Virus record (IMG/VR): IMGVR_UViG_2695420687_000010
Location: 1 to 7,836 of that record
Strand: one strand, 5' to 3'
DNA from: a virus
Taxonomy: Duplodnaviria; Heunggongvirae; Uroviricota; Caudoviricetes
DNA: 7,836 nt
This document shows, piece after piece, positions 1,333 to 2,672 of this stretch (positions are counted from its first letter, which is position 1; the number at the start of each line of letters is the position of its first letter). Position numbers and translations under genes: made by a program. The notes beneath the pieces were generated by a model. It saw only the letters and a list, made by a program, of their open reading frames with translations. It did no database searches and had not been told where the DNA came from.

Positions 1333-2145
1333 ATGAAAAAATCGCTGGTAGCGGTAGGCGTCATTGTTGCGCTCGGCGTAGTCTGGACAGGCGGCGCGTG
1401 GTACACAGGCAAGAAACTGGAAACGCATCTCGAAGAGATGGTTGCGCAGGCGAATACGCAACTTAAACTGACAGCGCCTGAATCCAACCTCGAAGTCAGC
1501 TATCAAAACTATCATCGCGGCGTATTCAGTAGCCAGTTGCAGTTAGTTGTGAAACCCGTTGCTGGCAAAGAAAATCCGTGGATTAAAAGCGGGCAGAGCG
1601 TCATCCTCAACGAAAATATCGACCACGGCCCCTTCCCTCTGGCTCAGCTTAAAAAGCTGAATTTAATTCCGTCGATGGCCTCAGTTCAAACGACGCTGGT
1701 CAATACCAACGTCACTAACCCATTGTTTGAGATGGCAAAAGGTGAAACACCTTTTGTGATTAATTCCCGTATCGGTTATAACGGCGACTCCAGTTCTGAT
1801 ATTTCCCTCAAACCACTGAATTACGAGCAAGAAGGCGAGAAAGTTGCTTTTAGCGGCGGTGAATTTCAACTAAATGCCGACAAAGATGGAAAAGCGATCT
1901 CTCTGTCTGGAGAAGCGCAAAGCGGCATTATAGACGCCGTTAATGAGTACAACCAGAAAGTACAGTTGACCTTTAATAATCTCAAAACTGACGGCTCCAG
2001 CACGCTGGCAAGTTTTGGTGAGCGTGTAGGCAATCAAAAACTGTCGCTGGAAAAAATGACTATTTCCGTTGCAGGTAAAGAGCTGGCATTGCTGGAAGGC
2101 ATGGAGATCAGCGGTAAATCAGNCCTTGTAAACGACGGCAAAACG
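1333..2145 (+). CDS. ydgA: DUF945-family protein YdgA, 3'-truncated (about 271 of ~500 codons); contains ambiguous base at 2123
   Basis: ORF begins MKKSLVAVGVIVALGVVWTGGAWYTGKK (hydrophobic signal/anchor-like N-terminus) immediately downstream of manA on the same strand, the known E. coli K-12 manA-ydgA synteny. The reading frame ends prematurely (TAA 2179-2181) shortly after the ambiguous base at 2146, where phage sequence on the opposite strand takes over. Confidence 0.78.
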
Positions 2146-2146
2146 N

Positions 2147-2672
2147 CAGGGGGTTTTTGGCGCCATACGCCTGCGCAGTAAGTCCGGTAGTGCTCATGCG
2201 CCTCGGTGACTTTCAGTACCTCCTCAGAACTGTAACCATACTCCCGCATGGAAGATGCAGAACGGGCAAAAAGGCTGGCGTTATCAGAAAACGCCGTCCC
2301 CGTTCTCTGGCTGATCGCCATTAATTCACGCTGTGATGCCTGAAAATCATCACTGGACTGTGAGGCCTGCTTCAGACGGGCATTTACTGAATTCCACTCA
2401 TCGGCGAGAGAAATAAGATGACCGGTAGCAAAAGCCCCGGCAAATGCCCCCGCCATATTCAGTGCCGAAGATTTAGCTGTATTTATCTGATCCGTCACTT
2501 CTGCCAGTGCACGCCGCATTTCACGGGAGGCAGCAGCAGACTGTTGGCCTCCGTTCTGCATGGTGCGGTAGTAATCCTGCCCCATACGCGAAGCCCGGGA
2601 GATCTCTGACTGGAATGACCGGGAGTTTGCCGAGATTTTAATAATCAGTTCACGTAATGTCGCCACACTCAT
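2147..2672 (-). CDS. Phage tail tape measure protein, N-terminal ~175 codons only (3' end cut at breakpoint)
   Basis: Minus-strand ORF MSVATLRELIIKISANSRSFQSEISRASRMGQDYYRTMQNGG...NMAGAFAGAFATGHLISLADEWNSVNARLKQ has N-terminal tape-measure character and sits directly downstream of the G/G-T chaperone pair, as in lambda/HK97 tail modules. Start is ATG at 2670-2672; GTG at 2664-2666 has better spacing to GGAG. The exact 3' breakpoint is uncertain (about 2146-2200). Confidence 0.7.

What the first reader, a model, noticed from the sequence alone, without database searches (positions are those of the whole stretch)
2120..2200. Breakpoint 2: ydgA truncated head-to-tail against an inward-facing phage tape-measure gene, with N at 2123 and 2146
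ydgA (+) loses its frame right after the N at 2146 (stop at 2179-2181, about 230 codons short of the expected length), while the minus-strand tape-measure ORF runs into the same zone from the other side. Two convergent truncated genes with ambiguous bases between them and no attachment-site or integrase signature is not how prophages insert. The exact switch point cannot be placed from sequence alone.
Basis: partly seen in the sequence, partly recalled or inferred. Interest (0 to 1): 0.45.

Follow-up and report, generated by a model that had tools for sequence, protein, structure and literature searches.

The report
Chimeric contig join, not biology
The ydgA/phage "breakpoint" is two of at least seven false joins in a small patchwork contig from an Escherichia albertii draft assembly, so it is almost certainly an assembly artefact and not a prophage insertion or genome rearrangement.

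Summary
The breakpoint is real in the deposited sequence, but it is two joins, not one. ydgA (E. albertii type, codons 1-271 of 502) ends at G2145, with an N at 2146. Bases 2147-2201 are a 55/55 exact internal piece of E. albertii dinF (residues 66-83, minus strand), a gene megabases from ydgA in E. coli. From 2199 the sequence is the first 156 codons of a 1075-codon tape-measure gene, sharing only CGC (2199-2201) with dinF.

The window is the whole 7,836-bp contig CDRK01000176.1 (GCA_000936005.1). It is a mosaic of eight unrelated pieces: narZ, manA-ydgA, dinF, a 4.7-kb internal prophage block, holC-pepA, rnhB, a fimbrial-like piece and a plasmid dynamin gene.

Every N lies at or within 23 nt of a join, usually on the first base where the two sources disagree. 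Joins share 1-5 nt. I found no att repeat, tRNA, integrase or IS.

The junction occurs in no other collection searched, and all same-species references continue ydgA normally.

Verdict: technical misjoin, no biological interest beyond database hygiene. Read mapping would settle it.

The parts
1333..2145 (+). ydgA (DUF945), codons 1-271 of 502, E. albertii type. The called ORF runs on to 2181 by read-through.
   Evidence: 99.55-99.70% identical without gaps to L014-L017 and 99.4% to L006, all of which continue to a 501-502 codon gene. 87% identical to E. coli ydgA.
2123..2123 (.). Ambiguous base inside ydgA, 23 nt before the join. All references have A here.
2146..2146 (.). Join 1 (ydgA|dinF). 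N on the first base where the two sources disagree (ydgA A, dinF C). G2145 is shared by both.
2147..2201 (-). Orphan internal fragment of dinF (MATE efflux transporter), residues 66-83. It contains the stop (2179-2181) that ends the chimeric ydgA ORF.
   Evidence: 55/55 identical to E. albertii NBRC 107761, whose locus shows the natural dinF-lexA-dgkA-plsB context. 88-90% identical to E. coli dinF. Translation RMSTTGLTAQAYGAKNPL.
2199..2201 (.). Join 2 (dinF|tape measure). The 3-nt CGC is shared by both sources.
2199..2666 (-). Phage tail tape-measure gene, first 156 of 1075 codons.
   Evidence: 99.9% identical to E. coli prophages. Homology starts abruptly at 2199.
2199..6874 (-). Internal prophage head-tail block: truncated tape measure, tail assembly proteins T and G, Ig-domain major tail protein, gp17, HK97-gp10-like protein, head closure protein, head-tail connector, and a 5'-truncated major capsid gene.
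   Evidence: Colinear without gaps with NZ_CP119000.1 (99.87%) and with Escherichia phage vB_EcoS-733R4 and relatives (99.7%).
1..142 (+). Context: narZ fragment, followed by NNN (143-145). The Ns cover the three bases where narZ (TCacgC) and manA (TCcaaC) disagree.
146..1232 (+). Context: manA lacking its first 32 codons, E. albertii type (358/359 aa).
6875..7337 (-). Context: N6875 (capsid T versus holC A, after a shared CAA), then the holC 5' part, a REP-like element and the pepA 3' end.
7333..7479 (-). Context: 147-nt internal rnhB fragment, sharing TCCAG with pepA.
7504..7836 (-). Context: fimbrial-gene-like piece (7504-7583, 76% identity), then the 5' end of a plasmid dynamin-family gene (7581-7836, 99.2% identity).

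Best explanation
The zone is a pair of false joins in a chimeric contig. The whole window is contig CDRK01000176.1 of draft assembly GCA_000936005.1, an Escherichia albertii-type genome by sequence. Pieces of eight unrelated loci have been strung together in it. In the finding zone, the end of a manA-ydgA piece was joined to a 55-nt scrap of dinF, and that scrap was joined to the end of a prophage piece that begins inside the tape-measure gene. I infer that the joins were made by software (assembly, scaffolding, gap closing, or consensus calling over them) at chance overlaps of a few bases. On that reading the Ns are what was left where the two source sequences, or the reads mapped back onto them, disagreed. 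Nothing functions here. The truncated YdgA-fusion and tape-measure-fusion ORFs are products of the join, not genes. The mosaic structure, the exact switch points, the uniqueness of the junction and the association of the Ns with the joins are shown. The step that produced the joins is inferred.
For: (1) Mosaic: eight segments map to loci that are separate in every reference: narZ, manA-ydgA, dinF, prophage, holC-pepA, rnhB, fimbrial-like and a plasmid dynamin gene. That makes at least seven joins in 7.8 kb, with pieces as short as 55 and 147 nt cut from inside genes. (2) Same-species references show the normal arrangement. Four E. albertii-type assemblies and one metagenome contig carry fumA-manA-ydgA with a full-length ydgA, and the E. 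albertii type strain has dinF next to lexA. (3) The junction is unique. It is absent from 5,426 complete E. coli genomes, from the GTDB species representatives, where only the natural dinF was hit, from IMG/VR and from JGI metagenomes. The four-part chimeric ORF is a singleton among about 15 billion proteins and occurs on one contig only. (4) All four N events lie at or within 23 nt of a join (P about 6e-6). Three sit exactly on the first base or bases where the two joined sources differ: 143-145, 2146 and 6875. That fits a consensus conflict or a gap placeholder. A physical junction sequenced at normal coverage would not be expected to give it. (5) There is no biological junction signature: no tRNA, no att-like direct repeats, no integrase or IS. 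Every base of 2100-2250 is accounted for by ydgA, dinF or the tape-measure gene. (6) The contig is only 7,836 bp and consists of nothing but such pieces.
Against: No reads or other contigs of the assembly could be examined, so lack of read support across the joins is inferred, not shown. The joins share more bases than chance predicts (16 against 4 expected over six joins, P about 2e-4). That is also what polymerase template switching or in vivo microhomology-mediated end joining would leave. Common assemblers do not join on 1-5 nt overlaps (my own knowledge), so the exact software step is unidentified. Ns at a junction could also arise at a real junction if reads from intact copies elsewhere were mismapped onto it during polishing. 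N2123 is not explained by a source conflict.
Confidence: 0.8

Rival explanations
1. Physical but in vitro chimera. The DNA molecule existed in the sequencing library, made by template switching during whole-genome or PCR amplification or by co-ligation of fragments, and was assembled faithfully from low coverage.
For: Microhomology of 1-5 nt at the joins exceeds chance, as expected for template-switch chimeras (general knowledge of MDA and PCR chimeras). Fragment sizes run from 55 nt to 4.7 kb and include plasmid and prophage DNA.
Against: Individual chimeric molecules are unique and seldom reach assembly coverage. Seven serial joins in one molecule would be unusual. MDA chimeras usually join nearby inverted segments (my own knowledge), whereas these loci are far apart in E. 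coli records. For example ydgA lies at 2.25 Mb and dinF at 4.32 Mb in NZ_CP128613.1. Ns on the first discordant base point to a consensus conflict, not a clean physical junction.
Confidence: 0.13
2. Real in vivo rearrangement. A decaying prophage region of this E. albertii strain acquired scraps of chromosomal and plasmid DNA by microhomology-mediated illegitimate recombination or alternative end joining.
For: Microhomology at the joins. The pieces are same-species in sequence, so they come from one cell type or sample.
Against: It would need at least seven independent joins in 7.8 kb, using internal gene scraps of 55-147 nt from loci spread round the chromosome, with no IS, att site or repeat. 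No other genome or metagenome shares any part of the junction. The Ns are tied to the joins. The contig consists only of such pieces and ends after 7.8 kb.
Confidence: 0.03
3. Ordinary prophage-chromosome junction (attL/attR), or an IS- or transposon-mediated insertion into ydgA.
For: Phage DNA lies next to a disrupted chromosomal gene.
Against: The phage sequence starts inside the tape-measure gene and ends inside the capsid gene, so it is an internal segment. There is no integrase, tRNA or flanking direct repeat. A dinF scrap, not phage-end or IS sequence, sits at the join. The sequence flanking the far end of the phage block is holC, not the rest of ydgA.
Confidence: 0.01

Closest known systems
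Chimeric contig or misjoin in a draft short-read assembly (misassembly of the relocation/translocation type)
   Same: Adjacent segments come from non-adjacent loci. Genes are cut internally. The junction is unique to one record. Ambiguous bases sit at the joins. There are several joins in one short contig, and spurious fusion ORFs are annotated across them.
   Different: The overlaps at the joins are only 1-5 nt, far shorter than a k-mer or read overlap. The responsible software step (scaffolding with tiny contigs, gap closing or contig merging) cannot be named from the sequence.
Lambdoid or HK97-like prophage attachment junction
   Same: Phage structural genes lie next to a chromosomal gene. 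The phage block is 99.7-99.9% identical to E. coli prophages and to Escherichia phage vB_EcoS-733R4 and its relatives.
   Different: There is no att core repeat, integrase or tRNA. Both ends of the phage block fall inside genes. The two chromosomal flanks (ydgA/dinF and holC) are unrelated loci.
Microhomology-mediated illegitimate recombination (bacterial alternative end joining) or template-switch chimeras
   Same: Short shared bases at the joins: G, CGC, CAA, TCCAG.
   Different: Physical existence of the joins is untested. The Ns on the discordant bases and the number of joins argue for a computational origin.

Membership tests
Prophage integration junction (attL/attR) | The phage genome ends at an att site, not inside structural genes | tested here: not met
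   The phage block runs from codon 156 of the tape-measure gene to the interior of the major capsid gene. Intact prophage L001 continues on both sides.
Prophage integration junction (attL/attR) | Direct repeats (att core) flanking the element | tested here: not met
   No direct repeat pairs 2100-2250 with 6800-6950.
Prophage integration junction (attL/attR) | Integrase gene and/or tRNA or tmRNA target next to the junction | tested here: not met
   No tRNA or tmRNA. All ORFs of the block are head-tail morphogenesis genes by colinearity with the annotated L001.
Prophage integration junction (attL/attR) | The two chromosomal flanks are the two halves of one target locus | tested here: not met
   The left flank is ydgA plus a dinF scrap and the right flank is holC-pepA.
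Assembly chimera / misjoin | Adjacent segments are non-adjacent in reference genomes of the same species | tested here: met
   L014-L017 and L006 continue ydgA. L003 has dinF beside lexA.
Assembly chimera / misjoin | The junction is found in one record only | tested here: met
   No hit in the E. coli complete genomes, GTDB representatives, IMG/VR or JGI metagenomes. The chimeric ORF is a singleton.
Assembly chimera / misjoin | Ambiguity codes or gap placeholders concentrated at the joins | tested here: met
   All four N events lie within 23 nt of a join, three of them exactly on discordant bases.
Assembly chimera / misjoin | No reads or read pairs span the join, and intact copies of the cut genes exist elsewhere in the same assembly | not testable with these tools
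IS/transposon-mediated rearrangement | IS end or inverted repeat, and a target-site duplication, at the junction | tested here: not met
   Every base of 2100-2250 is accounted for by ydgA, dinF or the tape-measure gene. No IS sequence is present.
In vivo microhomology-mediated end joining | Short microhomology at the joins | tested here: met
   16 shared bases over six joins against 4 expected, P about 2e-4.
In vivo microhomology-mediated end joining | The junction is physically present in the organism's DNA | not testable with these tools
   This needs reads or PCR.

The most novel reading that the evidence does not exclude
The contig is physically real: a patchwork locus in an E. albertii strain in which a decaying prophage captured short scraps of at least six chromosomal and plasmid loci by serial microhomology-mediated end joining. 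That would be a shattering-and-restitching event of a kind not described in enterobacteria.
Probability: 0.03. Interest if true: 0.7.

Novelty: not a real feature. Interest (0 to 1): 0.06.

Why it matters
The zone has no biological significance. The practical value is in data hygiene. Contig CDRK01000176.1 of GCA_000936005.1 should be treated as chimeric. Its fusion ORFs (the YdgA-fusion, tape-measure-fusion, capsid-HolC fusion and the pepA/rnhB/fimbrial/dynamin fusion) have already entered protein collections as orphan 'proteins'. The case also gives a simple recognition rule for such artefacts: serial joins between same-species fragments, with single Ns sitting on the first base where the two sources disagree.

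Tried and rejected
(1) Prophage attachment site: rejected, because there are no att repeats, tRNA or integrase, and the phage block is internal.

(2) The tape-measure gene extends at lower identity into 2147-2198: rejected. A sensitive blastn-short search and a colinear comparison with the intact prophage show no similarity left of 2199.

(3) The window's ydgA is merely divergent beyond 2146: rejected with 99.4-99.7% identical references.

(4) The orphan as the start of a YahK-like alcohol dehydrogenase (my first guess from its translation): rejected. It is DinF residues 66-83.

(5) The 13% divergence from E. coli without gaps as artificial mutation: rejected. The block is 99.6-99.7% identical to E. 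albertii-type assemblies, and ManA is 358/359 identical to E. albertii ManA.

(6) The exactly 2000-nt manA-ydgA block as a sign of deliberate construction: not supported. With the shared and ambiguous bases counted, the piece spans 141-2146.

(7) N2123 as a ydgA/dinF conflict: not consistent. Other a/c conflict positions in the same stretch are not N, so it stays unexplained.

(8) Literature searches for the accession and for the project returned nothing useful.

(9) The first protein search for YdgA returned only cluster representatives of at most 92% identity, whose DNA turned out to be E. coli type. The same-species references came from a metagenome pattern scan and from the ManA cluster.

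Full report
**What is in the sequence**

The window has non-ACGT bases at 143-145, 2123, 2146 and 6875. The plus-strand ORF 1333-2181 begins as YdgA and stops at 2179-2181. A minus-strand ORF, 2034-2672, begins as a phage tape-measure protein.

**Placing the switch points**

- Megablast against 5,426 complete E. coli genomes splits the window. manA-ydgA covers 146-2145, at only about 87% identity.
- A phage block covers 2199-6874 at 99.9% identity.
- No genome covers the zone in one piece.
- A colinear comparison and a short-word BLAST against an intact prophage (NZ_CP119000.1, L001) show that tape-measure homology starts abruptly at 2199. Nothing to the left of it is similar.
- Bases 2147-2198 therefore belong to neither gene.

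**The orphan is dinF**

- The orphan matches E. coli dinF at 88-90% identity.
- It has one exact hit in the species-representative genomes: Escherichia albertii NBRC 107761. That locus shows the natural dinF-lexA-dgkA-plsB context.
- Window 2147-2201 is 55/55 identical to it.
- It encodes DinF residues 66-83 on the minus strand.
- In E. coli, dinF and ydgA are about 2 Mb apart. In NZ_CP128613.1 they lie at 4.32 Mb and 2.25 Mb.

**Same-species references for ydgA**

- A metagenome contig (OLIF01000041.1, L006) matches window 561-2145 at 99.4% identity.
- Four assemblies carrying the E. albertii ManA protein (L014-L017) match 146-2145 at 99.55-99.70% identity without gaps.
- All of them continue ...GGCAAAACG|ATCAATAGC... 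into a 501-502 codon ydgA, within the usual fumC-fumA-manA-ydgA order.
- The window keeps codons 1-271 and lacks about 230.

**Anatomy of the two joins**

- Join 1: G2145 is shared by ydgA and dinF. N2146 is the first base where they differ (ydgA A, dinF C).
- Join 2: CGC at 2199-2201 is shared by dinF (...CATGCGCaaaa) and the tape-measure gene (...gatCGCCTCGG).
- The tape-measure gene keeps 156 of 1075 codons.
- N2123 lies inside perfect ydgA, where every reference has A.

**The whole window is a mosaic**

| Window coordinates | Source | Identity to reference |
|---|---|---|
| 1-142 | narZ | 94% |
| 143-145 | NNN | - |
| 146-2145 | manA-ydgA | about 87% to E. coli, 99.55-99.70% to E. albertii type |
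| 2146 | N | - |
| 2147-2201 | dinF scrap | 55/55 to E. albertii |
| 2199-6874 | prophage: tape measure to major capsid, both cut internally | 99.9% |
| 6875 | N | - |
| 6876-7337 | holC, REP-like element, pepA 3' end | 93% |
| 7333-7479 | rnhB scrap | 89% |
| 7504-7583 | fimbrial-like piece | 76% |
| 7581-7836 | plasmid dynamin-family gene | 99.2% |

- That makes at least seven joins in 7.8 kb.
- At the left edge, narZ reads TCacgC and E. albertii manA reads TCcaaC. The window has TCNNNC, so the three Ns cover exactly the three discordant bases.
- At 6872-6875, the capsid gene (CAAt) and holC (CAAa) give CAAN.
- pepA and rnhB share TCCAG.
- All four N events lie within 23 nt of a join (P about 6e-6).
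- The joins share 16 bases where 4 are expected by chance (P about 2e-4).

**Source of the window**

- Two ORFs that only this sequence would encode are the 172-aa pepA/rnhB/fimbrial/dynamin fusion and the 5'-truncated 359-aa ManA. Both are on record on one contig only: CDRK01000176.1 of NCBI assembly GCA_000936005.1.
- That contig's length, 7,836 bp, equals the window.
- The fetched loci are identical to the window, Ns included.
- The 172-aa fusion is a singleton cluster among about 15 billion proteins.
- The dinF|tape-measure junction is absent from IMG/VR and from JGI metagenomes. The GTDB representatives hold only the natural dinF.
- No paper in the library mentions the accession.

**Tests for a biological junction**

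- There is no tRNA or tmRNA.
- No direct repeat brackets the phage block.
- There is no integrase, because the block is purely head-tail morphogenesis genes by colinearity with annotated L001.
- There is no IS sequence. Every base of the zone is assigned to ydgA, dinF or the tape-measure gene.
- The far flank of the phage block is holC, not the rest of ydgA.
- A prophage attachment junction and an IS-mediated insertion are therefore excluded.

**Interpretation**

The most economical reading is a chimeric contig produced during assembly, scaffolding, gap closing or consensus calling. Same-species fragments, some no longer than a read, were strung together at chance overlaps of a few bases. An N was left where the two sources, or the reads mapped back onto them, disagree.

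This step is inferred. I could not see reads or the other contigs of the assembly, and I cannot name the software. My recollection that some scaffolders insert a single N for unresolved or negative gaps is background knowledge and was not tested here.

The excess microhomology keeps two rivals alive:
- An in vitro template-switch or ligation chimera that was then assembled (about 0.13).
- A real in vivo microhomology-mediated patchwork (about 0.03).

Either way the zone is not a prophage insertion site. The fusion ORFs across it are not genes.

**Comparison with known things**

The zone behaves like a textbook relocation or translocation misassembly. It fails every defining feature of an att junction that could be tested. 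It shares only the short microhomology with alternative end-joining products.

The phage block itself is an ordinary HK97-like/lambdoid morphogenesis module. It is 99.7% identical to Escherichia phage vB_EcoS-733R4 and its relatives.

**Verdict**

- The feature is not biologically real, and interest is very low.
- The decisive tests are read mapping across 2146 and 2198/2199, a search of the remaining CDRK01 contigs for intact ydgA, dinF and tape-measure genes, and a junction PCR.

Noticed in passing
window 1333-2181, 2034-2666, 5694-7064 (approx.), 7221-7739: The chimeric fusion ORFs are called as genes on the deposited contig and sit in the large protein collection. The 172-aa pepA/rnhB/fimbrial/dynamin fusion is a singleton cluster among about 15 billion proteins. 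This is database pollution by artefactual 'orphan' proteins.
   Followed up: partly
window 146-2145, 2147-2201, 6876-7479 versus 2199-6874 and 7581-7836: Core-gene pieces are 87-94% identical to E. coli but 99.6-100% identical to E. albertii. The prophage block (99.9%) and the dynamin-plasmid piece (99.2%) are near-identical to E. coli records. Either E. albertii shares these mobile elements with E. coli, or the sequenced sample was mixed.
   Followed up: no
window 7480-7583: Bases 7480-7503 could not be assigned to any reference. Bases 7504-7583 match an lpf-cluster fimbrial gene of E. coli at only 76% identity. The rnhB|fimbrial join therefore could not be placed to the nucleotide.
   Followed up: partly
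window 2123: A single N lies inside otherwise perfect ydgA (A in all five same-species references), 23 nt before the join. Unlike the other Ns it is not at a source conflict. It may reflect low read support near the contig-piece end.
   Followed up: partly
window 7100-7210: A REP/BIME-like palindromic element lies between holC and pepA. A 36-nt core also matches intergenic sequence in L003 (E. albertii plsB side) and in L004.
   Followed up: no
window 141-146, 2145-2146, 2199-2201, 6872-6875, 7333-7337: Joins share 1-5 nt between the two sources (16 bases over six joins against 4 expected by chance). Where an N is present it marks the first discordant base. This could serve as a recognisable fingerprint of whichever merging tool made the contig.
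   Followed up: yes
window 5694-7097 (minus strand): The capsid gene and holC are fused in frame across N6875, giving a 456-467 aa ORF. The tape-measure ORF also reads through the dinF scrap and antisense ydgA for 54 more codons. Both appear to be chance read-through.
   Followed up: partly
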